Below, piece by piece: positions 1,071 through 54,550 of a DNA stretch of 64,000 nucleotides (positions within the stretch are counted from its first letter, which is position 1; every line of letters begins with the position of its first letter). The stretch covers positions 59,768,001 through 59,832,000 of the forward strand of contig OX597817.1 in assembly GCA_951406725.2 (NCBI GenBank), given 5' to 3'. The notes beneath the pieces are model-generated. The model did no database searches and had not been told where the DNA came from. It was given only the letters and a program-made list of their open reading frames with translations. The translations under genes and the position numbers were made by a program. The stretch is from Octopus vulgaris (lineage: Eukaryota).

Positions 1071-1174
1071 GAAAGGAGTTCCATTACAAATGGTCAATGA
1101 TAACATTCCCTAAAGGTGCTGAGAAACAAGGGTCAATGACTGGACCAGACAGTCAGACATTTATTCTCAAAGAT
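1071..1174 (+). CDS. KIAA0319L: KIAA0319-like (AAVR-like) internal coding exon, PKD1 part (KEFHYKWSMITFPKGAEKQGSMTGPDSQTFILKD)
   Basis: ttgcag acceptor and gtaagt donor, phase 1 to 0. The translation resembles my recalled human KIAA0319L PKD1 (TYDWQLITHP..GEMEGKHSQILKLSK) and joins the next exon in frame. Confidence 0.85.
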
Positions 1175-3233
1175 GTAAGTGGATTGCCAATTTACTCTCC
1201 CTCTCTTTGTCTTTCTCTCCCTTTCTTTCTCTCTCTCTTTCTCTCCCTCTCTCATTGTATGAATTAATTGACTGACAAGGGACTAAGAATTATGTAACCA
1301 ACATCATTAACATCGCAGTTTGTTTCTGCAGTGTACTCAGATTTTAAAAGCTCTGAAGAAGCTATCGGATGTTGCCCAAGCTCTCAGCTCTGAGAGCATT
1401 GCTTCTTTTAGCAGAAACATCTGTAAGCCAATGAAGCTGATTATGTATTTTCAGTTCTTGTCATTCAATCAATTTATATTATGCTCTCTACTTTACTCTA
1501 AAGCATATCTTTATTGAGTCCTAACATCAGGTTGTCTCACTATGTCTATGCAAAATCATCACAAATATGCACACAAGAATTGGTAATTCTGAAACATGGT
1601 ATTGATTTTTTTTTTAATATTCCATGTTGAGGATCTTTCAGCCCCACCCGACTTATTATTCTCTACATACACGGAAGATATTAATGTGACTGATTTTGCA
1701 TCTCAAACATCTGAAATCAGTGTCTGCGAGAAAATCCTGGTCGGAGACAATATGCAAAAAGATTGGGTTCCATTTGCTCTCAATATTTCTCATTTCTTTT
1801 GGTTAGTGTTTTTTAGGAGCAGAGGCACGGCTGTGTGCTTAAGAAATTTACTCTTCAACCACATAGATTTTGGTTCAGTGCCACTGTGTGGCACCTTGGG
1901 CAAGTGCCATCTTCTATAGCTCCAGGCTGACCAAAGCCTTGTGAGTGGATTTGGCAGACAGAAATGAAAATAAATCTGTCCTATATATCTTCCTCATCAT
2001 CTTCTTCCATTTTAACATCCATTTTCTGTGCTGCTATGCATTGGATGGCTTGACAGGACCCAACAAGCCACAGGGCTGCACCATGTCCCTTTGTCTGCAC
2101 TGGCATCATCTCTATAGCTGGATGACCTTCCTAATGCTAGCAGTTGGACTGGTGGGGGAAGCTTGTTTTCATGCCACCAGCACTAGTGAGATTGCCGACT
2201 AACTGGGAAGACAGGAAAACACCCCGCCTAAACAGCGTGTGCCTGGGGGAGTTGGTTTTACACTAGGTGTTGGTGGTGGTTAAAGTTTGGAAGGAGGGAC
2301 AAGTCCAGATGTGTTACTATGGTGAATATAAATATTTGCCCCACATTATATAAGAGTGGATGGGACTAGCTAGGAAGTAAGAAGAGATGGTTGTTATGGT
2401 GAGCCAGTGCAAACCCTCTAGGAGCCAGAAAAGATATGGATGAGGAGGAGAAAGAAGGGGGAGAGTGACAACAGATGGTTAGAGATAGGGGTTAGAAGTG
2501 AAGGCGGTGACAAACGAGTGGGAGTGCAGCTTGGTGGGAAGTAGCAGTATTGAGGGAAGGGGTAAGGGGAGAGATAAAAAGGCTGAAGGATAACAGATCA
2601 GGAAGTAGGGGACAATGATCAAGGAGTGGAAGGGAGGGAGACATGATGGTGGTATGTAAGTGTGGCCATGGTTAGTGGACATGGTAGCTGATGGAGGAGG
2701 GCATTGGGAATGAAAGCAGATATGAGATGGAGAGTCACTGGAGGGAGAGATAGGAGGGAATTGGTGAACATGGGAAAGGATGAGGATGGAAATGCAGGCT
2801 GGAGGCAGTGACTGGTAACGCAAAGAGTTAGGGGATGTGATGGTATGTGTGCCAAGGGGGGGAGGATGGGGAAAGAGTGATGTGGGGAATATTTGATGGA
2901 GCAGAATGAGCATAGGAACAGGGCCTAGCATGCACCCATAGACAATGCTTTTAGGACATGCGTGCGTGTGTGTGTGTTTGTATCTCCTTGTGACTTTCTG
3001 TAATAACTGTAAATTCATTCATTTCCAATATTCTGTGGAATCATCTGTGGCCAGGGAGAAATGTTACTTTGCTTGGAAGCAAGGGAGGGTTGGCCATAGA
3101 AAATCCGCCTCACTAGTTTCTTCTTCTTCACTTTTTAACCTTGAAGAAAAGAAATATGTGCATTTTTTTGTCTTTTTTTTGTGTGTAGTGTATTATGATT
3201 GTTTAATTACTAACTTATTATTTTAATATTTAG

Positions 3234-3321
3234 CTTGTTGCTGGTCTTTACACCTTGAAACTTGAAGTCACTGGAAACAACCGAGCTGGTGAAGCCTATG
3301 TCAATGTAACTGTTATCCCAC
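3234..3321 (+). CDS. KIAA0319L: KIAA0319-like exon, end of PKD1 (LVAGLYTLKLEVTGNNRAGEAYVNVTVIP)
   Basis: tttag acceptor, gtaagt donor, phase 0 to 1. Matches the PKD1 motif GLYEFKV..GEGYVNVTV. Confidence 0.9.
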
Positions 3322-4033
3322 GTAAGTAATGAAAATAACCACCTGCATTGTGTTGTGTTGCTCTCATTAGACGGAATGGTCAGAAATGGTTAAGAAGCTT
3401 TCTTGACAATCGCAAGGTCCTACTTCTTGGCATTTTGAGCAAATGTCTTTTACTGTAGCTTCACATCAAGACAAGCCTTCTGAGTGAAATTGGGTTGATT
3501 GAAACTGTAGGGAAGCCCATCAAACAAATCATATTTGTAATTCAATCCTTTAGTATTCAGGGGCATTTTGTCTGTTTTTACATTCTGAGTTCAAATCCCA
3601 CCAATGTCGACTTTGTCTTTCATCCTTCCAGGGTTGATGGAATCAACTAGACTCTCCTCCACTAAAATTTCAGGCTTTATCCCTTATCACAGAAAAGACT
3701 TTAATTATTATCAAGGCTATTAATTGCTATATTAATTAGCAGGGATTTTATCTTGAGGTTTGGTGACAACAATTCTCCTCAAATCTCAAGAATCTTTCTT
3801 AGGATTCTCAAAGAATATGGAATGGTACTTTTCTGCAGGTTGACATTGTGAGTCTCAGTTCCAATAGTTTTCAGTCTTTTTGGTAACATTTTCAGTGTTG
3901 TGCCAAGAGCATTCTTTACCACAGGAAGGAACTTTTGAAATTTTTGTCTTCCACAATTTCTTCTTCTCTTTGATTAGTCCCAGATATTTCTCAATTTTCT
4001 CTAAATATTATCATTATTATTATTATTATTTAG

Positions 4034-4123
4034 CAAAGAGGATTAATAAACCCCCAGTCGCTATAATTAAACCAACATCTCTCCAGATCAAGTTACCTAC
4101 ATCTGCTATCCTTGACGGCTCAG
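4034..4123 (+). CDS. KIAA0319L: KIAA0319-like exon, first half of PKD2 (KRINKPPVAIIKPTSLQIKLPTSAILDGS); donor site missing
   Basis: tttag acceptor, phase 1, NxPPxA..LP...LDGS PKD motif. No GT follows ...GGC TCA G, and the sequence runs straight into a retroelement 3' tail. Confidence 0.8.
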
Positions 4124-4607
4124 CAAGGAAAGCAGACATTAAATAATGATGATGATGATCATTATCATTTAATGTTCATTTTCCGTGCTAGCTTTGGTTG
4201 AATGGTTTGATGATCCAGCATGCAATAGGGCCGTGTGTCAAGTTCCAGTGTCAGCTTTGGCATGGTTTTTGTGCTGATTGGTTGCCCTTTTTAATGCCGA
4301 CCAATTCCGAGCGGATACTCAGTGCATTTTGGAGAGGACAATAAGTAGAGAAAGGAAAAAGAGACTCCCTTGACTAAGTGTGGGGGAGAAGTATTTGAGA
4401 GGTGGGGGGGGTCGTTTTATGGACAGTGTTGAAAGGCTATGTAAAGATGCTACATGGCTTGAACCCTGCATTATATAAGGGTTGTGGGTAGTAGGTAGGA
4501 AGATAGTATAGTAGTGAAAGGGTGTCCAGAGCAGACCCTCAGGGAGCAAGGAGGTGTGCATAAGAGAGGATGTAGTGGATCAAGGGGAACAGTTATAGAT
4601 TATCTAT

Positions 4608-4970
4608 TACTCTTTTACTTGTTTCAGTAATTTGACTGTGGCCATACTGGAGCACCGCCTTTAGTCGAGGAAATCGACCCCAGGACTTATTCTTTGTAAA
4701 CCTAGTACTTATTCTATCGTCTCTTTTGCTGAACCTCTAAGTTACGGGGACCTAAACACACCAGCATTAGTTGTCAAGCGATGTTGGGGGGACAAACACA
4801 GACACACACACACATACACACATGCATATACGACGAGCTTCTTTCAGTTTCCGTCTACCAAATGCACTCACAAGGCTTTGGTTGGCCCGAGGCTATTGTA
4901 GAAGACACTTGCCCAAGGTGCCATGTGGTTGGTAAGCAAGCTACTCACCACACAGCCACTCCTGCGCCTA
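4608..4970 (-). mobile_element. tRNA-headed SINE, family A (CORE-like accttgggcaagt segment)
   Basis: Reverse complement of the copies at 20604 and 58108. Many further decayed copies occur across the window. Confidence 0.8.
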
Positions 4971-5151
4971 TTCTAAGTAATTAGTTTCTTTTTGAGAAAA
5001 TTTTTTTGTTCCTGGCTTCAGTGATTTACAACCCTTCAACGTTAATCTCTCATTTCATTGCACAATGGACTCCCACTCTCCCCATTTCATTCTCTGCCTT
5101 TTTTTTTTATCAACCAATGTTATTTGTGTTTGTTGTTTCCTTGCTCTTTAG

Positions 5152-5312
5152 AAACTGATTACCGTCCAACAGCCAACGCAGGATCTGACGTTGTCATCAA
5201 CCTGCCAGAGAATTCGGTCACTCTCTATGGAAATGCCAGTACTGATGATAAAGGTATTGTCAGTTATGAGTGGACAAAATCATCAGATGACCACTTAGTG
5301 GCTGACATGATG
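5152..5312 (+). CDS. KIAA0319L: KIAA0319-like exon, first half of PKD3 (TDYRPTANAGSDVVINLPENSVTLYGNASTDDKGIVSYEWTKSSDDHLVADMM)
   Basis: Polypyrimidine tract plus ttag acceptor, phase 1 to 0. Strong PKD3 similarity (DYPPVANAG..ITLPQNSITLFGNQSTDDHGITSYEW). Ends at a GC donor (ATG|gcaaga). Confidence 0.9.
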
Positions 5313-6169
5313 GCAAGACACAGTTTTTTTTAGCTTATTTTTTTCTCACTGGATTGACAATGTTGTGTGTGTGATTGTGATGGTCACTTTGCAATCATGT
5401 GGTTTTAGGTTCAGTGGCTTTGTGCAGCTCTTTGGACAAATGTGAATTTGGCTGAAGGAAACTGGGCAGAAGCCCATCTCACACACACACATGCATACAT
5501 GTGTGTGCGTGTCTGTTTCTCACTGCTTAACAACCTGTGCTGGTTTGTTTCCATTCCCACATTTTGGTTGAAGGAAACTGGGCAGAAGCCCATCTCACAC
5601 ACATGCATACGTGTATGTGTGTTTTCTCACTGCTTAACAACCTGTATTGGTTTGTTTACATTCCTACAATTTAGCAGTTCAGCGAAATAAATGTTGGTGG
5701 GGATAAGTACTGGAGCCAATTTGATTAAATTCTTCAATGTGGTGCCCCAGCATAGCCACAATCCAATGACTGAAGCAGAAGATAAAAGATAAAATCCAAA
5801 ACATTCTCCAGAACTTTCTAACATCTCTGCCTGAAACCTTATATTCTTTGTGTGTGGCAACAGCTGAAGAACAAGGCATTCTTCAGTTGGTAGTCTGTCT
5901 AAGTAGCCTGGTCTTGTAATGCCATTGGCAGAATGTGGGGAGAGAGAGAACTGAGAAGCATGCAGCAGCCTTGGAAGTAATTGTTGCGTCTTTGAACTAA
6001 TTGAAGACTTGTGTGTAGAAAAGGCTGTTGCTTATTAGGCGTTAGGTAAGGGCATCCAGCCATGGAAACCATGCGAAATCAGACTGGAACCTGGTATAAC
6101 TCTACGACTTACCAGTTCCAGTAAGACCATCTAACCTTTGCCAGCATAGAAAACAGATGCTAAATAATG

Positions 6170-6630: not shown

Positions 6631-6754
6631 GGGGTTCGCTCTCCAGTCCTGAAAATCTCAAACCTTGAGGTGGGAAATTACAAGTTTACTTTGAAAGTCA
6701 CGGATACAGGTGGACAGAATGCCACAGCAGACGTACATGTTTTTGTGAAACCAG
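6631..6754 (+). CDS. KIAA0319L: KIAA0319-like exon, second half of PKD3 (GVRSPVLKISNLEVGNYKFTLKVTDTGGQNATADVHVFVKP)
   Basis: ttttag acceptor, CAG|gtttgt donor, phase 0 to 1. PKD motif GxYxFxLxVTD. Confidence 0.92.
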
Positions 6755-7142
6755 GTTTGTTGAAAAAAAACTTAACACCATATTCCTTGTCTGTTTTTTA
6801 TAATGTCCATGGTTGAATATTTCAGTTTTATTTTCATATTTTTATCGATGGGAAATTTATATCTCTGCTGTACAATCTTATCCAAAATGTTTACAGTTGT
6901 GTTAGGAGCATGTAGTCCTTGCACTGACCAAAGCCTTGAGACTTGATTTAGTAGATGGAAGCCTGTCAAGTGTTGTAGTTGTTGTTGTTGCTTTGCCTTG
7001 TTGTTGTGTGATAGCTATGAATGAATGTTAACATGGAAGTGGTCCCCTTCAGTTCCAGTGTTGTGGGAAAACATGCCCAGCCATGGGGAAATGTTACCTT
7101 GTTTGGAAACAGGCAAGAGTTAGCAGAAGGAAGGGCAGTCAA

Positions 7143-7618
7143 CCATAGAAAGCTTGCCAACAAATTCTGTGTGACCCATGCGAGCGTGGGAAAGTGGACG
7201 TTAAAACAATGATATTGATAATGATGAAAACACATCAAACTAATAAGGGAGCATCTGCAGTTTGCTTGACCTGCGAGAAATAGTTGTGTGCATCCCAACT
7301 ACATCGTCCAGTGTGAACATTTTTCTAAAAAAACCAATAAGGTATGATTAGAGGGAGATCATCATCACCTTCCGAAAATGGACATTAAAAGAGGATGATG
7401 ATGATGGTGATGCTGTTGTTGATCTCCTTCAAATCATACCTTATTGTTTTTTGTTGTTTTTTTTTAAATATTCACATTGGATGATGTCGTTGGGATGCAG
7501 TGTCTGGAAAGAATACAAGTTGTTTGTGTCTTGAAGAGTTTTAATAAGAAATCAGCTGAATCTCGTCTGACATGGGATTAAGGAACAATGTTGTGTTTTG
7601 GATAGATCGGAAGAACAG
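7143..7618 (+). repeat. Intronic block of about 475 bp, duplicated at 11608-12080
   Basis: Near-identical from ccatagaaag..tgccaacaaattctgtgtgacc to ttggatagatcggaagaaca. Confidence 0.92.
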
Positions 7619-7829
7619 GAGTTGTTTGTTGTATTAATGAGGGGGCCGCCTGAGGTCAGTATTAAATGGGAGCTAGAGAGGAGAAGGGAAAGACAGAGAT
7701 GACAAAAGAATAGGGATAATGTTAAAAACCCAATTGATTTACCCATATTCAAACAACATTATTTGTTTCATAGGGAAATTAATGCTCAACAGTAAGGTTT
7801 ACTCTATAGTGGGTGTGTGTGTGTATATA

Positions 7830-8070
7830 TATTACCTTCGAAACGCAGAGTAGCCAAAACAGGGACAACTGAAGAAGGGGAATATTCCTTGTGTTGCATG
7901 TCTTGTACTCTGTTTTTTCATTGTATGAAAAAAAGTTCGTTTCCATGTTTTTGTTTTTATGTTTTCGTTTCTCATTGTATTCAACGTTTTTTTGATGTCC
8001 TGTACCCATATATGCATGTATATATACATATAGATGTAGGTATGTACATATATGTATATATTTATATATT
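7830..8070 (+). mobile_element. Penelope-like pseudo-LTR fragment, homologous to 59056-59280
   Basis: Shared caactgaagaaggggaatattccttgtgttg...tgtcctgtacccatatatgcatg, with hammerhead-like half motifs ctgaaga and cgaaac. Confidence 0.5.
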
Positions 8071-8131
8071 ATTTATATTATTCTATGATCGAACACCATG
8101 CATCCTTTTCCAAGTAAGTTTTATCTTAATT

Positions 8132-8197
<66 letters not shown>

Positions 8198-8236
8198 CAC
8201 ACAGACACAAATCTATACAGATCTTCTCATTTGCAG

Positions 8237-8369
8237 AGGTGAACCAGCCGCCAGTTGCTGTTACTGCTGGAGAAATAACTGTTGTATTACCAGTTGCCAG
8301 CCTCGTCCTCGATGGTCAGAACAGCACGGATGATAAAAACATTGAAACCTACTCATGGAGACAAACAAG
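8237..8369 (+). CDS. KIAA0319L: KIAA0319-like exon, first half of PKD4 (EVNQPPVAVTAGEITVVLPVASLVLDGQNSTDDKNIETYSWRQT)
   Basis: ttgcag acceptor, AG|gtagga donor, phase 1 to 2. LDGxxSxDD..Y.W motif. Confidence 0.92.
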
Positions 8370-8701
8370 GTAGGACGAATGTTTGTTACTTTCAAAATTG
8401 TTTTTCTGAGCTGGCGGAAGCGATAGGACATGAGACAAAATGTTTAGTGGTATTTCTTGTGACTCGTTATGTTCTGAGTTCAAATTCCAACAAGATCATC
8501 TTTAACTTTTAGTCCTTTTGGGCATTGATGAAATAAAGTACCAGAGATGTCGTTAGTTGACAAATGGGAATAATCTTATTGTGAATACTGTCCCTACTCG
8601 TTTTCTATCTCATTCTCCATCTTTTTCTTTTCTTAAATCTACACACTATCAAAAAAAAAAGATGAAGACAGAAAGTTGAAATGGAGTGATAGTGGCAGAA
8701 A

Positions 8702-8732
<31 letters not shown>

Positions 8733-9247
8733 TGAGTGGTACAGGCATGGTTGTGTGATTAAGGTGCTTGCCTCCCAGTCATGTGATCTTAGGTTCTGTC
8801 CTGCTGCACAGCACCTTCAGAAGGCGTCTTCTCTAGCCCCGGGCTAACTAAAGCTTTGTGAGTGGGTTAGACAGAAACTGTAAGAAGCCCAACGTGTGTG
8901 TGTATGTACCTTTATCTTGACATCACATGACAGATGTAAATGACCTTCACTGTTATACAAGCAAAGTTATTCATTTCTAGTTTTCTTTAGGAAACGTGTG
9001 TGGTCAAGGGGAAATATTACTTTGCTTAGTAAAAGGTGGGGGTTGGGGATGGTGCTCTTCCTGTCACCAACCCTATGACAGGAAGAGAATCCGGGTGTAG
9101 AAAATCTGTCTCAACAAATTCCATCTAACTCATACAAACATGGTGGTTATTAAATGATGATGTGTTTGCAATATTAAATGATGTTCTGCTAATTACTGAG
9201 GTTCCGTGTTTTGTCTATCCTCAATCCCCATGCTGTCTTTCTCGCAG

Positions 9248-9396
9248 TGGACCCCAGTTGACATTGTCCAATTCAGACAGGAACATTGCCACAGCAACTG
9301 GTGACATCAAAGTGGCAGTGTACATGTTTAAACTCACAGTCTACGACATACAGAAGCAGTCCAGCTCAGCAAATTTGAAGATCACCGTCACCCAGA
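9248..9396 (+). CDS. KIAA0319L: KIAA0319-like exon, second half of PKD4 (SGPQLTLSNSDRNIATATGDIKVAVYMFKLTVYDIQKQSSSANLKITVTQ)
   Basis: cgcag acceptor, gtaagt donor, phase 2 to 1, consistent with both neighbouring exons. Confidence 0.9.
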
Positions 9397-10368
9397 GTAA
9401 GTGCTTTGGCTATCTTATTGTCTCTCATAATATTCATTGTGGCTGCTGGCATGGCTGTGGGGTTTTAAGAGGTTTACCCATAAATGGTTTCGGGTTCATT
9501 GTTACTGCTTGTCTTCTAATTTAGCCCTGGGGTAAATGCTTTGTGAGTGGATTTGGTAGATGGAAACTGAAAGAATCCTGATGTGTATGTGTGTGTGTCT
9601 TGTTTTGACATTGAGTGACAGTTGTAAATGAGTGTCCCTGTCATACAAGCTGTGCCATTCTTTCCAGTCTGGCTGTGGAGAAATATTACCTTATCTGGAA
9701 AGAGGTGAGGGTTGGCCACAGGAAGAGCACCCGGCTGTAGGAAATCTGCTTCATTCAAACTCATTCCAACCATGCAAATGGATGTTAAAAAAGAAGGATG
9801 ATGATTTGTCTGGTGTCCCTGGATAAATTCCTTGTTGCTTAGAGGCTCTGCTCAATGCCAAGCATTGGTGAACAGTTCCAATAATGTTGTTGCAAAATCA
9901 TCCTTTTTCCCAGATTCTTACGATTTTGTCTTTGAGCTGATTGGTTGCTTGGATTTTCTTTTTCTTCAAGAACCACATGGTTTCAGGTTCAGTCCCATTG
10001 TGTGCCACCTTGGAAAAATATCTTCTACTATGGCCTGGGGCTGCCAAATCCCATGTGAGTGAATTGGATAGACAGAAACTGTGTGAAGCCTGTCATATGT
10101 GCATTTGTGTTTGTCCCCACCACCACCACCACCACCACCACCACTCACTAACCAGTATTGGTTTGTTTATATTCTTGTCATTTCGTGGTTCTGTGACATA
10201 AATACTAGACTATAAAGAATAAGCAGAGTGGAGTTGGTTTGTTTTTAACCAAACTCTTGAAGGTGGTGCCCCAGCATGGTCGTGATTCAGTGACTGAAAC
10301 AAGTGAAAAGAGAAAAGACAAAGAAAATAATGTCTATATGTTTTGTAATTTCTAAATTTATCTTTCAG

Positions 10369-10520
10369 AGGAAAACAAGGCCCCCATGGCGGACGCTGGA
10401 GGGGACAAAGTGATTCAACTCCCAAAATTAATAGTTTTGCTGGATGGATCCCGTTCACATGATGACCAGAAAATTGTTCGCTATCAGTGGACCCGAGATC
10501 CAAGCAGTCTGGCTGCAGGG
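10369..10520 (+). CDS. KIAA0319L: KIAA0319-like exon, first half of PKD5 (KENKAPMADAGGDKVIQLPKLIVLLDGSRSHDDQKIVRYQWTRDPSSLAAG)
   Basis: tttcag acceptor, gtaggt donor, phase 1 to 0. WTRDxxSxAAG motif as recalled for KIAA0319-family PKD5. Confidence 0.93.
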
Positions 10521-10811
10521 GTAGGTCACCCCAGTTTGAATATTGAATTTCTTCTAAAGTTATTGGGTTCTTGTCTGGAAACAGGTGAAGGTTACTAAAA
10601 AGAACAACAACATCCAGCAGCAGATAATTCTTCTCTGTGGATTTGTCTGACTCTGTAAACTCAGAAAAGTGAACACACACACATACACACACACACTCAT
10701 TGTTTAGGATAGAAAATGAACTTGTGCACTAATGTAATGTAATGTGATAAAACTGGTTCCCTTGCCTGACTTTTTGTGATTCAGTGGCCTCCAAGTTAAC
10801 AGTTCCGTTGG

Positions 10812-11300
10812 GATCATCATCATCATCGTCTGCTTTCCATGCTGGCATGGGTTGGATGGTTTGACTGAAGACTGGCAAACCAGATGGCTGCACCAGGCTC
10901 CAGTCTTGATCTGGCAGAGTCTTTAAAGCTAGATGCCCTTCCTAATGCCAACCACTCTGAGAGTGTAGTGGGTGCTTTTACGTGCCACCAGCACGAGGGC
11001 CACTCAGGCAGTACTGACAACGACCACACTCAAAAGGTGTTTTTTTATGTGGTACTTTCATGGGAGCCAGTCCAGCAGAACTGGCAATGACCATGCTCAA
11101 ACATTTTTCACTTGCCACCGGCACATGTGCCAGTAAGGTGATACTGGCAATGATCACACTCGAATGGTGCTTTTTACGTATCACCGGCACAAGAGTCAGT
11201 CAGCAGCCCTGGCAACAATCATGCTCAGATGGTGCTTTTAACGTTCAACTGGCACAAGTGCCAATCTGGTGCTATTGTCATCGGCCATGTCAGCAATTTT
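10812..11300 (-). mobile_element. RTE-tail repeat with internal tandem units
   Basis: Reverse complement of the same family. Confidence 0.8.
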
Positions 11301-11607
11301 GATGTTTATGCCTTTCCCAAGAATGTTCTCCCACTCTATCATCTCCCCCCGCTATTCCCTGCTGCATATAATGTGGGATAGCCATTATATCTCCTCCACA
11401 AAAAGACACCTCTCAACACCTGGCATAAAGCCACTGCCTCCACCCCCTCCCCTTTCAAATATTACCCCCTATTTAGTAGGTCTGAGGGGGTGCATTTTCC
11501 TTTTCTTTTCTTTTTCTTTGTTGTTTTCTTGTCTTGGCAAGTTAGTTGGTAGCACGCAGTAAGCACTCTGTACATACCGTAATGTGGTTGGCATTAGGAA
11601 AGAAGGC

Positions 11608-12080
11608 CATAGAAAGTCTGCCAACAAATTCTGTGTGACCCATGCGAGTGTGGGAAAGTGGGCGTTGAAACAATGATGTTGATAATGATGAAAACACATC
11701 AAACTAATAAGGGAGCATCTGCAGTTTGCTTGACCTGCGAGAAATAGTTGTGTGCATCCCAACTACATCGTCCAGTGTGAACATTTTTCTAAAAAAAACC
11801 CAATAAGGTATGATTAGAGGGAGATCATCATCATCATCCGAAAATGGACATTAAAAGAGGATGATGGTGGTGGTGGTGTTGTTGATCTCCTTCAAATCAT
11901 ACCTTATTGTTTTTTTGTTGTTTTTTTTAAATATTCACATTGGATGATGTCGTTGGGATGCAGTGTCTGGAAAGAATACAAGTTGTTTGTGTCTTGAAGA
12001 GTTTTAATAAGAAATCGGCTGAATCTCGTCTGACATGGGATTAAGAAACAATGTTGTGTTTTGGATAGATCGGAAGAACA
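11608..12080 (+). repeat. Second copy of the 7143-7618 block, inserted within a retroelement
   Basis: The flanks ggcattaggaa and catccagctgtagaaa are normally near-contiguous in the repeat consensus seen elsewhere in the window. Confidence 0.88.
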
Positions 12081-12352
12081 TCCAGCTGTAGAAATCAGGC
12101 CAAAGAATGCCACTAGAGCTCAGCAGATCCCATCAAACCATCCAACCCATGCCAGTATGGAAAATGGACATTGAGTCATTATGATGATGATGATGATAGC
12201 AGACGGATGGTCAGGCTGGCTGGCTGGCTGGCTGGCTGGCTATGGGAAATATTTTTTTTTACCGTTGCAGGAATAAAGATTAAGAAAACTGTGTTTGTCT
12301 TTTAGTGCCTGCCTGAATCACTTGTTAACATATTTTCCTTTATATTCCACAG

Positions 12353-12491
12353 GAGATTGCCAACAACTCAAACTCGGAAGCTGTGCTGCAACTTATTAAC
12401 CTAATCGCTGGCAGATATATCTTCACTCTTCATGTCTTTGACAGTGATGGTCTGTCCAGCTCTGATTCTGCTTCCATTATTGTCAAACCAG
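12353..12491 (+). CDS. KIAA0319L: KIAA0319-like exon, second half of PKD5 (EIANNSNSEAVLQLINLIAGRYIFTLHVFDSDGLSSSDSASIIVKP)
   Basis: ccacag acceptor, CAG|gtaaga donor, phase 0 to 1. This is the last recognisable KIAA0319-like exon in the window. Confidence 0.92.
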
Positions 12492-12911
12492 GTAAGAACT
12501 GGGTTTTTACTTCTTCCCCACCCACTCTCATCCATACAAGTTATTTTTAATGGTTTTTTTTTTGCATGTGTTTTTAAAGAAAACAATAAATTGTTCTATA
12601 AAGAAACCTTACCCCATGTGTGACCCAGCAGATCTTGTGCTTTCAGTATTCTGTGATCACATTGTTTTCTCTTCTCTGTTCTCGAATGACCTCATTTCAG
12701 TCACACTCTTGCAATAATGCCCCTTGCAGGGATCTTTCCATGGCCCTTTGTACCCAATCAATGTTCTTCCTCCTTGATAGTAACCCATTTGTCAGATAGG
12801 AGTGTAGGGGGACAGTGCCATTGAAGAGACTAGTGTGTAGGCCCTAGTCTAGCTTTGCTTTGAGCACATCTTTTATTGAGGGTTTTTGGGGTTGACGTGT
12901 GTGTGTGTGTA

Positions 12912-14360
12912 TAAGGTGGTATCAAAGAGTTCCCAGTCTAGTTATATGTTTATTAAAAAAATGACTTATTTACTTAAGTTTTAACATCATCATCATTATT
13001 GTTTAACGTCTGTTTTCCATGCTGGCATGGGTTGGGTGGTTCGACTGGGGTCTGAGGGGGCTGCTCCAGGCTCCAATCTGATCTGGCAGTGTTTCTAATA
13101 CTGGATGCCCTTCCTAATGGCACCACTCCAAGAGTGTAGTGGGTGCTTTTTACGTGCCACCAGTACAGGGGCCAGAGGGGTCTGGCATCGACCACGTTCA
13201 GATGGTGCTTTTTACGTGCCACCAGCACAGGGGTCACAACTACAATTTCCATTTGATTGTAATTTATTTTGATTTTGATGTCTTTGACTTAATAGGTCTC
13301 CTCAAGCACGGAATGTTGCCCTACAATCCAAGGTACTCTTGAGTGGGCTGGGGCTGATTATGCGACACTGGTGTAGGTTACAGCTGTGAACTCGCTTTGT
13401 TTGCCAAGTCTTCTCAGTCACAGCATATCTCCAGAAGTCTCAGTCTTTCATCATTGCCTCAGTGAGGCCCAATATTCGAGGGGCATGCTTCAGCACCTCA
13501 TCCCATGTCTTCCTGGGTCTACCTCTACAGTCATATTGTACAACAACACACCAGTTCAAATGTTCCCCCCACTTTCGGAATCCAACCTGGAAGTTGGTTT
13601 CCATAAGTGAGACAAGGACCTTCTGCAATTCACTCTTGATCTCGACAATGGTGCTAAAATGGTGACCCTTGAACTGCATTTTCATCTTGGGGTTAGAGAA
13701 AGAAGTGCACAGGTGCTAAATCTGGCAAATAAGGGTGGGTGCAGACGTGATACCCTGTTGTTTTTGGCAAAAACCTCACGAGTGGAGAGAGCTTGGTGAC
13801 ATGAGGCAATGCCATTGTGAAGAATTCAGTTCTTAGTGCTCCACAGATCTGATCACTTTTGCCGAATGTCTTTCTCCCTCAAATGCTTCAAAGTGTCACA
13901 GAACAACTCACAACTCTCCATTGATGGTCTGGCTTTGGTGGAAGAATTATCAATGTACAATTCCACATTTATGGGACATGACACACCTGGCAGGTCTTCC
14001 AGATTGCTCATTGTCTACCAGGGACATTCTTCAACTATTAAAGGACCTGTGCCACTCGAAACATTGCCTCCTCACCATAAGCTTGCCAAGGCATGTTCAA
14101 TGTCTCTGTAGCAGACTTCCCAAGCTTAATGCAGAATTTCATGTTAGCCCTTTGTTCCTGTCCATGACAAAATTGCAGACTACAGCAGACACGGGATCAC
14201 AAGATTGCAAATTTCACAATTTGCAGAGTAAACACAGCGATATCGCTTGGCACATCGCTTCATGAAGGTTCACAGCTAGCTCTCACTGCACGTGCAACCA
14301 CATGCTGCCATTTGTTGGTGCACAACAGAACTAATCCAGGAACTTTTTGATACCACCTTG
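12912..14360 (-). mobile_element. Decayed mariner/Tc1-type DNA transposon with terminal inverted repeats, interrupted by an RTE-derived insertion
   Basis: TIR pair aaggtggtatcaaagagttcccagtctagt (from 12913) and actaatccaggaactttttgataccacctt (to 14359). Minus-strand remnants HPYLPDLAP (YSPDLAP-like) and KGHHFSTIVEIK..FQVGFRKW. Confidence 0.8.
12985..13530 (-). mobile_element. 5'-truncated RTE-type LINE 3' end with long 3'UTR and (GAT)n tail
   Basis: Minus-strand RTE C-terminus CRGRPRKTWDEVLK..GLTEAMMKD, followed by the tail gcatggaaaacagacgttaaa(tga)n shared with many repeats in the window. Confidence 0.75.
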
Positions 14361-15360
14361 TGTGTGTGTGTGTGTATATATATATATGTATATATATATG
14401 TATGTATGTGTGTATATATATATGTATGTATGTATGTGTGTATATATATATGTATGTATGTGTATATATATATGTATGTATGTGTGTATGTATGTATGTG
14501 TGTATATATATATGTATGTGTGTATATATATATGTATGTATGTGTGTATATATGTATGTATGTGTGTATGTATGTATGTGTGTATATATATATATGTATG
14601 TATGTATGTATGTGTGTATATATATATATATGTATGTATGTATGTGTGTATATATATATGTATGTATGTGTGTATATATATGTATGTATGTGTGTATATA
14701 TATGTATGTATGTGTGTATATATATGCATGTATGTGTGTATATATATGCATGTATGTGTGTATATATATATGTATGTATGTATGTGTGTATATATATATG
14801 TATGTATGTATGTGTGTATATATATATGTATGTATGTATGTGTGTATATATATATGTATGTGTGTATATATATATGTATGTATGTGTGTATATATATGTA
14901 TGTATGTGTGTGTGTATATATATGTATGTATGTGTGTGTGCATATATATATGTATGTATGTGTGTGTGCATATATATATATATGTGTATGTATGTGTGTG
15001 TGCATATATATATATGTGTATGTATGTGTGTGTATATATATATATATGTATGTGTGTATATATATATATGTATGTATGTGTGTATATATATATATGTATG
15101 TATGTGTGTATATATATATATATGTATGTATGTATGTGTATATATATATGTATGTATGTGTGTGTATGTATATATGTATGTATGTGTGTGTGTATGTATA
15201 TATATATGTATGTGTGTATGTATATATATGTATGTATGTATGTGTATATATATATATATGTATGTATGTATGTATATATATATGTATGTATGTGTGTGTG
15301 TATATATATATATATGTATGTATGTGTGTATATATATGCATGTATGTGTGTATATATATG
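14359..15360. repeat. Compound (TA/TG/TATG)n microsatellite, about 1 kb
   Basis: Direct inspection. It is the source of the long spurious YIHT/VCMY ORFs. Confidence 0.97.
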
Positions 15361-15683
15361 CACCCACTACACTCTCGGAGTGGTTGGCGTTAGGAAGGGC
15401 ATCCAGCTGTAGAAACACTGCCAGATCTGACTGGCCTGGTGCAGCCTTCGGGCTTGCCAGACCCCAGTTGAACCGTCCAACCCATGCTAGCATGGAAAGC
15501 GGACGTTAAACGATGATGATGATGATGATGATGTGTGTATATAGGAAGGGCATCCAGCCGTAGAAACATTGCCAGATCAAACTGGGCTTGGTGCAGCCTT
15601 CTGGCTTCCCAGACCCCAGTTGAACCGTCCAACCCATGCTAGCATGGAAAGCGGACGCTAAACGATGATGATGATGATGATGA

Positions 15684-15728
<45 letters not shown>

Positions 15729-15909
15729 ATATATATATATTTATATATATTCCCCTTTAATCATTTAGTAAAGCCATTTGGTTCTGCTTTTGGAAAACTA
15801 TGAAAAATAGGTTTGTTTTTAGTCTTAAGTATCCTCCCTATTTTATTAACATAAAACAAAACATTTCGCTTTTCTGTGTTTATAATCATTTGACTTTTTT
15901 TCCCCCCAG

Positions 15910-16002
15910 GAGAAGATTTAGGGAAAAAATTAGGTTTGTTTTTCTGTAGCTTATGTAACATTTCTGTGAACTCTATGCAACAGTTGGAAGCTCATAAGAG
16001 TG
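15910..16002 (+). CDS. Matrin/U1-type zinc-finger exon, copy 1 (GEDLGKKLGLFFCSLCNISVNSMQQLEAHKS), ZNF385/ZNF346/ZMAT-like
   Basis: Long polypyrimidine tract plus cag acceptor, gtaagt donor, 93 nt, phase 1-1. Carries the C-x2-C-x12-H part of the finger. Confidence 0.75.
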
Positions 16003-16355
16003 GTAAGTATAGCCAATACATTTTCTGACAACCTTCCCCCCCGTTTTTAATCAGAGCTGTGCTCATTAATTACTGTATTTTAATTACTGCATGTTCAATG
16101 TCTCTGTAGCAGACTTCCCAAGCTTAATGCAGAATTTCATGTTAGCCCTTTGTTCCTGTCCATGACAAAATTGCAGACTACAGCAGACACGGGATCACAA
16201 GATTGCAAATTTCACAATTTGCAGAGTAAACACAGCGATATCGCTTGGCACATCGCTTCATGAAGGTTCACTGCTAGCTCTCACTGCACATGCAACCACA
16301 TGCTGCCATTTGTTGGTGCACAACAGAACTAATCCAGGAACTTTTTGATACCACC

Positions 16356-16356
<1 letters not shown>

Positions 16357-16389
<33 letters not shown>

Positions 16390-16654
16390 GTATATATATA
16401 TGTATGTATGTGTGTATATATATATGTATGTATGTATGTGTGTATATATATATGTATGTATGTGTGTATATATATATGTATGTATGTGTGTGTATGTATG
16501 TGTGTATGTATGTATGTGTGTATATATATATGTATGTATGTGTGTATGTATGTATGTGTGTATGTATGTATGTGTGTATATATATATGTATGTGTGTATA
16601 TATATATATGTATGTGTGTATGTATGTATGTATGTGTGTATGTATGTATGTGTG

Positions 16655-16685
<31 letters not shown>

Positions 16686-17336
16686 ATATATATATATGTA
16701 TGTATGTATGTGTGTATGTATGTATGTGTGTATATATATATGTATGTATGTGTGTATATATATATATATGTATGTATGTATGTGTGTATATATGTATGTA
16801 TGTATGTGTGTATATATATATGTATGTATGTGTGTATATATATGTATGTATGTGTGTATATATATGCATGTATGTGTGTATATATATGCATGTATGTGTG
16901 TATATATATGCATGTATGTGTGTATATATATGCATGTATGTGTGTATATATATATGTATGTATGTATGTGTGTATATATATATGTATGTATGTATGTATA
17001 TATATATGTATGTAAATGTGTATATATATATATGTATGTATGTATGTGTGTATATATATATGTATGTATGTGTGTGTGTATATATGTATGTATGTATGTG
17101 TGTATATATATATGTATGTATGTGTGTGTGCATATATATATGTATGTATGTGTGTGTGTATATATGTATGTATGTGTGTGTGCATATATATATATGTGTA
17201 TGTATGTGTGTGTATATATATATATATGTATGTGTGTATATATATATATGTATGTATGTATGTGTATATATATATGTATGTATGTGTGTGTATGTATATA
17301 TGTATGTATGTGTGTGTATGTATATATGTATGTGTG

Positions 17337-17367
<31 letters not shown>

Positions 17368-17460
17368 GTGTGTATATATATATATATATGTATGTATGTA
17401 TGTGTATATATATATATATGTATGTATGTATGTATGTATATATATATGTGTGTGTGTGTG

Positions 17461-17522
<62 letters not shown>

Positions 17523-17588
17523 TATGTATGTATGTGTGTATATATATGCATGTATGTGTGTATATATATGCATGTATGTGTGTATATA
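16357..17588. repeat. Compound (TA/TG/TATG)n microsatellite, about 1.2 kb (duplicate copy)
   Basis: Direct inspection. Confidence 0.97.
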
Positions 17589-17708
17589 GGAAGGGCATCC
17601 AGCCGTAGAAACATTGCCAGATCAAACTGGGCTTGGTGCAGCCTTCTGGCTTCTCAGACCCCAGTTGAACCGTCCAACCCATGCTAGCATGGAAAGCGGT
17701 CGCTAAAC

Positions 17709-17739
<31 letters not shown>

Positions 17740-17961
17740 TGTGTGTATATATATATTTATATATATATGTATGTGTGTATATATATATATTTATATATAT
17801 TCCCCTTTAATCATTTAGTAAAGCCATTTGGTTCTGCTTTTGGAAAACTATGAAAAATAGGTTTGTTTTTAGTCTTAAGTATCCTCCCTATTTTATTAAC
17901 ATAAAACAAAACATTTCGCTTTTCTGTGTTTATAATCATTTGACTTTTTTTTCCCCCCCAG

Positions 17962-18054
17962 GAGAAGATTTAGGGAAAAAATTAGGTTTGTTTTTCTGTA
18001 GCTTATGTAACATTTCTGTGAACTCTATGCAACAGTTGGAAGCTCATAAGAGTG
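17962..18054 (+). CDS. Matrin/U1-type zinc-finger exon, copy 2 (same coding sequence as copy 1)
   Basis: Same splice sites. Spliced to the 18974 exon it completes C-x2-C-x12-H-x5-H (CSLC NISVNSMQQLEA H KSGNK H). Confidence 0.85.
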
Positions 18055-18973
18055 GTAAGTATAGCCAATACATTTTCTGACAACCTTCCCCCCCGTTTTT
18101 AATCAGAGCTGTGCTCATTAATTACTGTATTTACCCATAAGTTGTACCCCTTTCTGTTGATAGTTTCAATTTTGCCCCCAAACGTGTCCCATCCCAGTGT
18201 TTTTTTGTAAAAATCAAGTACGAAATGGTAGGACTTATCCACAAGTAAATCTGATGATCACTGTGTGGAGACAAATTATTTTGAAAGATTATCTTTAATA
18301 ACTTAATGTCTTTCTAGTTACGATTATCTATGATTATTTTAAAGCTGCAGTGTATTCAGAGTATAATTTTCTTTGTGACTTTGAAGTTTCAAGCTGTTAG
18401 CCTTCAGTGGGAAGTGGAGTGCTGCAAAAGTCCAATGAAGGAGGTTACCTGTTGGAACCTCCAGAGTCACTGCCACTCCTCGTTTTATAAAGGTGTAATG
18501 GATTATGTACTCTACACAAAGGAATTGACTAATTCTTCAGTTTAATGTTGTTTTTATTATAACACAACATAAAAACAAATATTAATATTTTTTTATCTTA
18601 GAGTTACAGGCATTTCCTTGTTGTGCTCACGATGAAGTGAACTTGTACTTAGCTTGTTAGAACTTTGTAACCATTTTGCTATTGTTCACCACCAATTTAA
18701 AATTAATAAATTAAACCAGACTGTTGGCATCAGTTTCTGTTTTGGTGGACTGTGAACTGCAGTCACTAGCTTCATCGGGCATTAAAATATAGTATCCTGC
18801 CTTAAATCTAAGGCAAATAACTACAGTTTGTTAAAATATCTCGCTTCTATTTTCATAAGGGACTTAAGATACATCAACTTAGCAAAAGGGTTTTCCTTTA
18901 TACGTTTCCCCCTGTTTTTTTTTTTTTTATTTCCTCTTAATTTTATATTATGATTTTTTTCAATTTCCTACAG

Positions 18974-19065
18974 GCAATAAGCATGGAAATAAAATGCAGA
19001 AATTAGATGGCAAATGTCTTGATGACAAAGATGGAGACTCTCTAGAGTGCAAAGATGATGACTAA
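18974..19065 (+). CDS. Stop-containing exon of the zinc-finger gene (GNKHGNKMQKLDGKCLDDKDGDSLECKDDD*)
   Basis: U-rich tract plus tacag acceptor, phase 1. Supplies the last His of the finger (HxxGxKH). TAA at 19063-19065. Confidence 0.8.
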
Positions 19066-54417: not shown

Positions 54418-54550
54418 ATGTGGCGACATCCGACGATGTCCTGTTATCATCGCAGTCGGAAGAAAACCGTCCTTCACTGCTTCTGTGTTCGCTACAGCTG
54501 TAGTGACCTATCATTACTTCTTTTGGCTATATTCCTGCTGTTCCAGCCAG
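54418..54550 (+). CDS. Candidate first coding exon with a signal-peptide-like end (MWRHPTMSCYHRSRKKTVLHCFCVRYSCSDLSLLLLAIFLLFQP)
   Basis: aaaATG context, hydrophobic LSLLLLAIFLLF stretch, consensus donor CAG|gtaagt, phase 1. A second in-frame ATG lies at 54436. Confidence 0.6.

What the first reader, a model, noticed from the sequence alone, without database searches (positions are those of the whole stretch)
4034..5152. Microhomology deletion removes the donor and second half of PKD2, and an in-frame PKD2-less isoform is possible
Seen: the exon ends ...GAC GGC TCA G and continues caaggaaagcagacattaaataatgatgatgat. This is the 3' tail of the window's RTE-tail repeat (cf. ccagcatggaaagtagacgttaaacgatgatg at about 6486), joined through a shared CAG. 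The interval 4124-5151 contains repeats and no STDD..YxW..GNYTF..LTV exon. The flanking exons (ending 3321 and starting 5152) are both phase 1, so skipping the broken exon deletes PKD2 cleanly (VTVIP-Q-TDYRP). Known: in human AAVR, PKD2 is the main AAV2 capsid-binding domain. Any link to virus resistance here is speculation.
Basis: partly seen in the sequence, partly recalled or inferred. Interest (0 to 1): 0.7.

Follow-up and report, generated by a model that had tools for sequence, protein, structure and literature searches.

The report
Broken spare copy of duplicated exons
The missing piece of this octopus gene (a relative of the human gene-therapy-virus receptor AAVR) is missing only from what is likely a spare, duplicated block of exons, while intact copies are annotated on both sides and an intact spliced copy shows up in RNA, so the animal has likely not lost the domain and nothing points to virus resistance.

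Summary
The junction is in the sequence as described. Exon PKD2a (4034-4123) runs without a donor into a repeat tail, and the 65-aa PKD2b exon is absent from all 64 kb. The window's exons match, letter for letter, Octopus vulgaris model CAI9721075, which reads PKD 1-2-1-2-1-2-1-3-4-5. The broken exon is the last of four tandem PKD1-PKD2 blocks, behind three intact PKD2s. That gene copy stops after PKD5 and runs into the last exons of a zinc-finger gene, with no transmembrane exon. A second gene copy with intact PKD1-5 starts at 54.4 kb. An RNA run splices 4123 onto PKD2b, and an independent DNA run continues past 4123 into other sequence. No listed contig bridges the junction, though the tables were cut. 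The in-frame skip (VTVIP-QTDYRP) is already in public models, including O. sinensis RefSeq X4. Likeliest: a real small deletion in a redundant duplicate (about 0.6); otherwise an assembly error (about 0.3). The 2-3 nt microhomology is possible but unproven. No virus link was found. The residual lead is the opposite of the claim: PKD1-PKD2 exons appear multiplied, perhaps variably between animals.

The parts
1071..1174 (+). PKD1b exon of the fourth PKD1 block of gene copy A (SQTF variant)
   Evidence: Exact match only to P0001 res. 726 among the four models tested; X11 contig 9 matches 1069-1174 with 0 differences
3234..3321 (+). PKD1c exon, ends phase 1 (CCA C|gtaagt)
4034..4123 (+). PKD2a exon, complete in its coding part, donor missing
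   Evidence: X11 loose end at 4123 continues into PKD2b, which fixes the exon end at 4123
4121..4124 (.). Junction: exon-end CAG joined to the repeat tail. It also makes a possible GC donor one base early (TCA|gcaagg), which is phase 0 and would frameshift into PKD3a
   Evidence: frame read
4121..4191 (.). Tail-to-tail inverted pair of the (GAT)n-tailed repeat; imperfect hairpin
   Evidence: minus-strand copy at 4187; z -3.1
4124..5151 (+). Likely the surviving 3' part of the PKD2b-PKD3a intron; repeats, no PKD2b exon
   Evidence: contigs of X1, X2 and X4 cover 4159/4220-4630 and 4949-5450
5152..5312 (+). PKD3a exon, starts phase 1, ends at a GC donor (ATG|gcaaga)
   Evidence: X11 contig 16 leaves the window at 5313; run X4 has T at 5314
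6631..12491 (+). PKD3b, PKD4a/b and PKD5a/b exons (6631-6754, 8237-8369, 9248-9396, 10369-10520, 12353-12491); the last KIAA0319L-like exons of copy A
   Evidence: residues 652-909 of P0002 have no match in the window
15910..19065 (+). Last two exons of a three-finger zinc-finger gene (penultimate exon present twice, 15910-16002 and 17962-18054; last exon 18975-19065), fused onto model A
   Evidence: zf-met; P0203 matches only from res. 149 on
54418..54550 (+). First coding exon of gene copy B (MWRHPT...), whose model has intact PKD1-5
   Evidence: Matches P0048 (MWRHPT) and not gene A models (MWRHST)

Best explanation
The window shows a PKD2a exon joined to a repeat tail with PKD2b gone, and this is likely a real small deletion in the last of four tandem PKD1-PKD2 exon blocks of a truncated duplicate of the octopus KIAA0319L/AAVR gene, so PKD2 is likely kept in several intact copies. 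Inferred steps: (1) a tandem segmental duplication made copy A, which has the gene's 5' part up to PKD5 fused to the 3' exons of the upstream zinc-finger gene, ahead of copy B; (2) the PKD1-PKD2 block multiplied inside copy A; (3) a break at a tail-to-tail inverted repeat in the PKD2b-PKD3a intron was repaired by end joining to the AG/CAG at the PKD2a donor, removing intron, PKD2b and most of the left repeat arm; (4) transcripts that include the orphan exon would meet a stop (4141-4143) or a frameshift, and those that skip it stay in frame. With no transmembrane exon and spare PKD2s upstream, the lesion is predicted to be of little consequence.
For: All 12 copy-A exons tested occur exactly in P0001 (PKD2a in its upstream blocks only, since the model skips the window's copy), and the 54.4 kb exon occurs in P0048. 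Architecture is 1-2-1-2-1-2-1-3-4-5 in 4 models against intact PKD1-5 in P0048/P0049 (Pfam PF22352 10 vs 5 stretches). The PKD1 blocks in the models come in four versions (KIFIT/Q, EIILT/Q, KIFIA/Q, EIILT/K), more than two haplotypes could give, so the array is real at least in part. The window's copy differs from the contigs of X1, X2 and X4 alike at 7 substitutions and a 19-nt gap with matching ends at 3089, as a diverged extra copy would. X11 splices 4123 to a 198-letter loose end that I read by eye as D-S-T-D-D-M-K-V-V-K. X2 contig 21 goes 76 letters past 4123 unlike the window. Contig depth around PKD1 is 2.5-3.6 (X1) and 1.0-3.8 (X2) times that near PKD3, against 1.1-1.4 in organism B (a hint only, the tool says depth is not copy number). 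End joining at splice-site microhomology is a described route (PMC3020277, passages).
Against: No listed contig bridges 4123/4124 in any of 4 runs, and X2's contig runs through that point unbroken (161,523 pieces, 334 joints and 1,645 loose ends not shown; contigs drop rare variants). The window has homopolymer-length differences against the runs (2153, 2575, 2855, 4404, 5000) and near-duplicate segments (15525-16080/17568-18132 at 97%, 7143-7617/11607-12080 at 96%), which are signs of an imperfect long-read assembly. The upstream blocks lie outside the window and are known only from gene models. The breakpoint falling exactly on the exon end is not explained by chance repair alone.
Confidence: 0.6

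Rival explanations
1. The junction is an assembly or consensus error: a mis-join inside a repetitive tandem array at a hairpin-forming repeat pair. The fourth block is intact, or does not exist as drawn.
For: No bridging contig listed in 4 runs; X2 contig 21 passes 4123 into other sequence; homopolymer differences and local near-duplicates. A published O. vulgaris assembly was built from 27.5x nanopore reads with NextDenovo, Hypo and purge_dups at 1.22% heterozygosity (PMC10700109, passages); I did not establish that the window comes from it.
Against: Long-read mis-joins usually need long shared sequence, not 2-3 nt (own knowledge). Substitutions and the 19-nt gap mark the window's copy as a distinct sequence. 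Four PKD1 versions exist in the models. The output tables were cut, so absence was not shown.
Confidence: 0.3
2. The junction is RNA-templated: the PKD2a donor was spliced to the repeat's (C/T)AG as a cryptic acceptor, and that joint was copied back into DNA.
For: The break sits exactly at the exon end, and 19 of 20 repeat copies have AG just before the tail, so the lost piece would read as a donor...AG intron.
Against: Neighbouring introns are retained. The same geometry is expected from end joining at splice-site microhomology (PMC3020277, passages). No RNA contig with this joint is listed.
Confidence: 0.06
3. One reading: the animal's receptor has lost PKD2, giving a PKD2-less membrane isoform, perhaps selected against a parvovirus.
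For: The skip is in frame. O. sinensis RefSeq X4 has a full-length, transmembrane-bearing PKD 1-3-4-5 form. AAV2 uses mainly PKD2 of human AAVR (PMC5571256, abstract).
Against: Intact PKD2 in three upstream blocks and in copy B; PKD2a-PKD2b splice in RNA; copy A has no transmembrane exon in the window. X4 sits beside X1-X3, which keep PKD2, so it needs no deletion. Dependoparvoviruses are dated to about 50 My and discussed for amniotes (PMC13431526, passages). None of the 10 listed of 12 papers holding 'cephalopod' and 'parvovirus' concerns a cephalopod parvovirus by title or abstract start.
Confidence: 0.03

Closest known systems
KIAA0319/KIAA0319L (AAVR) family; O. vulgaris models CAI9721072-075 (copy A) and CAI9721076/077 (copy B)
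   Same: The window's exons are identical to these models, and model A already uses the VTVIP-QTDYRP junction.
   Different: Family members have five PKDs (144 of 165 fetched proteins of 499 aa or more have five domains starting 1-2-3). Copy A has ten, ends in zinc-finger exons and lacks the EGF, transmembrane and tail parts.
O. sinensis KIAA0319-like isoform X4 (XP_029634783.1)
   Same: Same PKD1-to-PKD3 junction, whole PKD2 skipped in frame.
   Different: A splice variant of a gene whose X1-X3 models keep PKD2, with transmembrane segment and tail. Its RNA support was not visible to me.
End-joining deletion at splice-site microhomology (Farlow et al., PMC3020277)
   Same: One breakpoint lies exactly at an exon-end AG and the other at an AG.
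   Different: The second end is a repeat's AG rather than the true acceptor, so an exon is lost and not just an intron. The microhomology is not verified.
Human AAVR PKD2 as AAV2 binding site (PMC5571256)
   Same: Orthologous second PKD domain; P0049 res. 168-454 aligns in order to human chain 6nz0_Z (E 2.8e-88).
   Different: No evidence that an octopus virus uses it; the domain is not lost here.

Membership tests
KIAA0319/KIAA0319L (AAVR) family | K319L-type PKD domains homologous, in order, to human PKD1-5 | tested here: met
   PF22352: 5 stretches in P0048, 10 in P0001; alignment to 6nz0_Z
KIAA0319/KIAA0319L (AAVR) family | Exactly five PKD domains | tested here: not met
   Copy A models read 1-2-1-2-1-2-1-3-4-5; copy B meets it
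KIAA0319/KIAA0319L (AAVR) family | Transmembrane segment and cytoplasmic tail after PKD5 | tested here: not met
   P0002 res. 652-909 has no match in the window. Model A ends in zinc-finger exons; model B ends at the EGF-like part, without the transmembrane exon
AAV receptor function | Capsid binding through PKD2 or PKD1 | not testable with these tools
   Known for human AAVR (PMC5571256, abstract); no cephalopod counterpart found
Microhomology-mediated deletion | Same short word at both breakpoints of the intact allele, kept once at the junction | tested here: inconclusive
   The junction keeps CAG once; repeat copies have CAG 11, TAG 8, CAA 1 of 20; the intact allele's letters were not seen. 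CAG is expected at about 1 in 93 places, AG at 1 in 17
Real germline deletion | Reads span the junction | tested here: inconclusive
   No listed contig bridges it in X1, X2, X4 or X11; X2 passes into other sequence; tables cut
Symmetric in-frame exon skipping | Flanking exons in the same phase | tested here: met
   Phase 1 and phase 1
Symmetric in-frame exon skipping | 3321-to-5152 joint in RNA | tested here: inconclusive
   Not among the listed joints. X11 contig 16 enters PKD3a through an upstream AG, which fits the PKD2b end and not the PKD1c end (inferred). The joint is present in models P0001 and P0004
RTE retroelement 3' tail | Homology to an RTE LINE 3' end | not testable with these tools
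   No repeat library here. The element is a common (GAT)n-tailed repeat; PMC13282606 (passages) lists RTE families but showed no sequences

The most novel reading that the evidence does not exclude
Common octopus carries a real, copy-number-variable tandem array of exactly the PKD1-PKD2 exons, with amino-acid changes in PKD1, and expresses from it a ten-PKD, membrane-anchor-less (secreted) version of its AAVR orthologue. This would break the five-domain rule of the family and could act as a soluble decoy or competitor. The broken exon is then one scar of an array that is still turning over.
Probability: 0.12. Interest if true: 0.55.

Novelty: new member of a known kind. Interest (0 to 1): 0.17.

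Why it matters
As found, it matters little: it is a lesion, or an assembly error, in a redundant duplicate, and the skip junction is already in databases. It is a practical warning that this locus and its gene models are unreliable. If the PKD1-PKD2 array is real, expressed and variable between animals, it would be a rare departure from the five-PKD layout, which PMC13431526 (passages) describes as conserved with constant spacing. The one search for 'KIAA0319' with 'octopus' returned a single unrelated review.

Tried and rejected
No whole genome was held, so the upstream blocks and the rest of copy B could not be read as DNA. Motif scan and tblastn for a hidden or inverted PKD2b exon found none, so 'unrecognised exon in the interval' is rejected. 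A new GC donor at 4123 was rejected as a rescue: phase 0 against phase 1 frameshifts to a stop in PKD3a. The search of shorter proteins gave 47 hits; by its table none was above 80% identical, so it supplied no transcript-derived octopus fragment with the skip or the tandem junction. The run search listed no holder on record as RNA. X4 has almost no cover at 3970-4120; a filter leaves records out, so this was not used. X11 contig depths were not used to rank exons. A k-mer model of variant share (X1 0.90, X2 0.98, X4 0.96; expected 0.91 for a quarter share) lies within noise and was not used. The direct-repeat finder was swamped by the microsatellite. Earlier-findings look-ups returned nothing. 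No structure or complex prediction was run because it would not change the verdict. Supplements of the papers were not opened; assembly quality figures there could bear on the artefact rival.

Full report
Observation. The window has an acceptor at 4033, an exon 4034-4123 encoding KRINKPPVAIIKPTSLQIKLPTSAILDGS, and then caaggaaagcagacattaaataatgatgatgat with no GT. Read-through stops at 4141-4143. The following letters belong to a common (GAT)n-tailed repeat. A fuzzy search gave 24 other hits; I dropped 4 as off-register or unrelated. Of the remaining 20, 11 are preceded by CAG, 8 by TAG and 1 by CAA. So a 2-3 nt overlap with the exon end is plausible but cannot be fixed without the intact allele. 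One of these copies lies on the minus strand directly beside the junction, making a tail-to-tail hairpin at about 4121-4191 (-17 kcal/mol, z -3.1, 0 of 200 shuffles). The second half of PKD2 (65 aa) has no match anywhere in the 64 kb. Exons ending at 3321 and starting at 5152 are both phase 1. The 'RTE' label and the microhomology are untested or unproven.

What the locus is. A search with the PKD3a exon returned 43 proteins among 72 candidates, led by Octopus KIAA0319-like proteins. Cluster look-up gave two sets of O. vulgaris models on a contig of the same length: CAI9721072-075 and CAI9721076/077. All 12 exons tested between 1071 and 19062 occur exactly in CAI9721075 (P0001), including the SQTF and WRQT variants and the doubled zinc-finger exon. 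PKD2a occurs there in the three upstream blocks, because the model skips the window's copy. The exon at 54418-54550 matches CAI9721076 (MWRHPT) and not the first set (MWRHST). The first set ('copy A') reads signal peptide, Ser/Thr region, PKD 1-2-1-2-1-2-1-3-4-5, zinc-finger exon(s). The second ('copy B') has intact PKD1-5 and continues to the EGF-like part. The broken exon is therefore the PKD2a of the fourth block, behind three intact PKD2s, and model A already uses VTVIP-QTDYRP. After PKD5b (12491) the window has none of residues 652-909 of the O. sinensis protein. It has instead only the last two exons of a three-finger zinc-finger protein: P0203 matches from residue 149 on, and its earlier exons are absent. 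This is the layout of a tandem segmental duplication whose first copy is cut after PKD5 (inferred). The upstream blocks lie outside the window and are known to me only through the named models. The domain numbering follows the in-order alignment of P0049 168-454 to human chain 6nz0_Z.

Reads (four runs, all contigs). RNA-like run X11 has a loose end at 4123, 198 letters long, whose first 30 letters I read by eye as D-S-T-D-D-M-K-V-V-K. This is PKD2a spliced to PKD2b, and it fixes the true exon end at 4123. X11 contig 16 covers 5150-5313 with 28 further letters upstream. Its match to the AG at 5150-5151 fits a PKD2b end (K-E) and not a PKD1c end (inferred). DNA run X2 has a contig over 3781-4123 with 76 more letters beyond 4123 that do not fit the window (orientation inferred from contigs that overrun the stretch end; letters not shown), at the same depth as the contigs near PKD3 (40.5 against 40.2 and 41.1). 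No listed contig of X1, X2, X4 or X11 bridges 4123/4124, and no 3321-to-5152 joint is listed. However, 161,523 pieces, 334 joints and 1,645 loose ends were not shown, and contigs drop rare variants, so absence is not proven. The window differs from the contigs of X1, X2 and X4 alike at 7 substitutions (3554, 4218, 4339, 4365, 4483, 4497, 4573), a 19-nt gap at 3089 and short homopolymer gaps at 4404 and 5000. It is thus not the copy that dominates the short reads. Contig depth in PKD1-region introns relative to the PKD3 flank is 2.5-3.6 in X1, 1.0-3.8 in X2 and 1.1-1.4 in X4 (organism B). The tool warns that depth is no copy number, so this is a hint only.

Real or artefact. For a real array: the PKD1 blocks in the models come in four versions (KIFIT/Q, EIILT/Q, KIFIA/Q, EIILT/K), more than two haplotypes can supply, and X11's contig carries the Q version with no difference from the window. 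For error: homopolymer differences, near-duplicate stretches and no bridging contig. A published O. vulgaris assembly used 27.5x nanopore reads, NextDenovo, Hypo and purge_dups at 1.22% heterozygosity (PMC10700109, passages); I did not establish that the window derives from it. I put a real deletion in a spare block at 0.6 and an artefact at 0.3. Both give the same biological verdict: PKD2 is not lost.

Mechanism. Shown: junction letters, missing exon, phases, stop on read-through, intact splice in RNA. Inferred: a break at the inverted repeat pair repaired to the AG/CAG at the donor. End joining at splice-site microhomology is a described route of intron loss (PMC3020277, passages); here the partner is a repeat's AG, so an exon goes too. 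Because the break is exactly at the exon end, an RNA-templated origin is kept as a minor rival. Including the orphan exon gives a stop, or a frameshift through the possible GC donor at 4123. Skipping stays in frame.

The PKD2-less form. Among 165 fetched proteins of 499 aa or more (the best hits of three searches, not all 1,315 hits), 144 have five PKDs starting 1-2-3. PKD1 sits next to PKD3 in 5: the four copy-A models and O. sinensis isoform X4. The other 16 have other patterns and appear partial or non-animal. X4 coexists with X1-X3, which keep PKD2, so the skip is an annotated splice variant that needs no deletion. Its RNA support I could not see.

Virus link. AAV2 uses mainly PKD2 and AAV5 PKD1 of human AAVR (PMC5571256, abstract). 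Invertebrates have a single ancestral gene, and dependoparvoviruses are dated to about 50 My (PMC13431526, passages). Searches for 'KIAA0319' + 'octopus' (1 unrelated review) and 'cephalopod' + 'parvovirus' (12 papers, 10 listed, none on a cephalopod parvovirus by title or abstract start) gave no support. With intact PKD2 expressed, loss-based resistance is not tenable.

Verdict. A correct sequence observation with the wrong consequence: a lesion or mis-join in a redundant exon block of a truncated duplicate. Interest 0.17. The lead worth keeping is the multiplication of PKD1-PKD2 exons (probability 0.12 of being an expressed, anchor-less form).

Noticed in passing
window 5313-5314: The PKD3a exon uses a GC donor (ATG|gcaaga). 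Runs X1 and X2 (organism A) agree with the window, while X4 (organism B) has GT, so this is a GT/GC donor difference between close relatives. X11 splices there.
   Followed up: partly
window 12491-19065: Copy A is cut after PKD5 and followed by only the last two exons of a three-finger zinc-finger gene (relative P0203), a likely duplication breakpoint next to a 1 kb TA/TG microsatellite.
   Followed up: partly
window 14091-16080 and 16089-18132: A roughly 2 kb tandem near-duplicate that includes the microsatellite and the zinc-finger exon (97% in the non-satellite part); possibly a haplotype or assembly doubling.
   Followed up: partly
window 7143-7617 and 11607-12080: A 478-nt stretch repeated at 96% in two different introns of copy A.
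   Followed up: no
window 3089: The window lacks 19 nt that runs X1, X2 and X4 all carry; the gap has matching TTGGCCA ends, like a second small slippage or microhomology deletion in this copy.
   Followed up: partly
models P0001/P0044-P0046 (upstream of the window): The first three PKD1 blocks of copy A are modelled without the first half of PKD1b (EPLE joined to GAEKQ) and carry PKD1a changes (EIILT to KIFIT or KIFIA), which suggests decay or divergence of the extra blocks.
   Followed up: partly
models P0048/P0049 (copy B, starts at window 54418): Copy B's models stop after the EGF-like part, without the transmembrane and tail exons that the O. sinensis and O. bimaculoides proteins have; the assembly or annotation there may be incomplete.
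   Followed up: no
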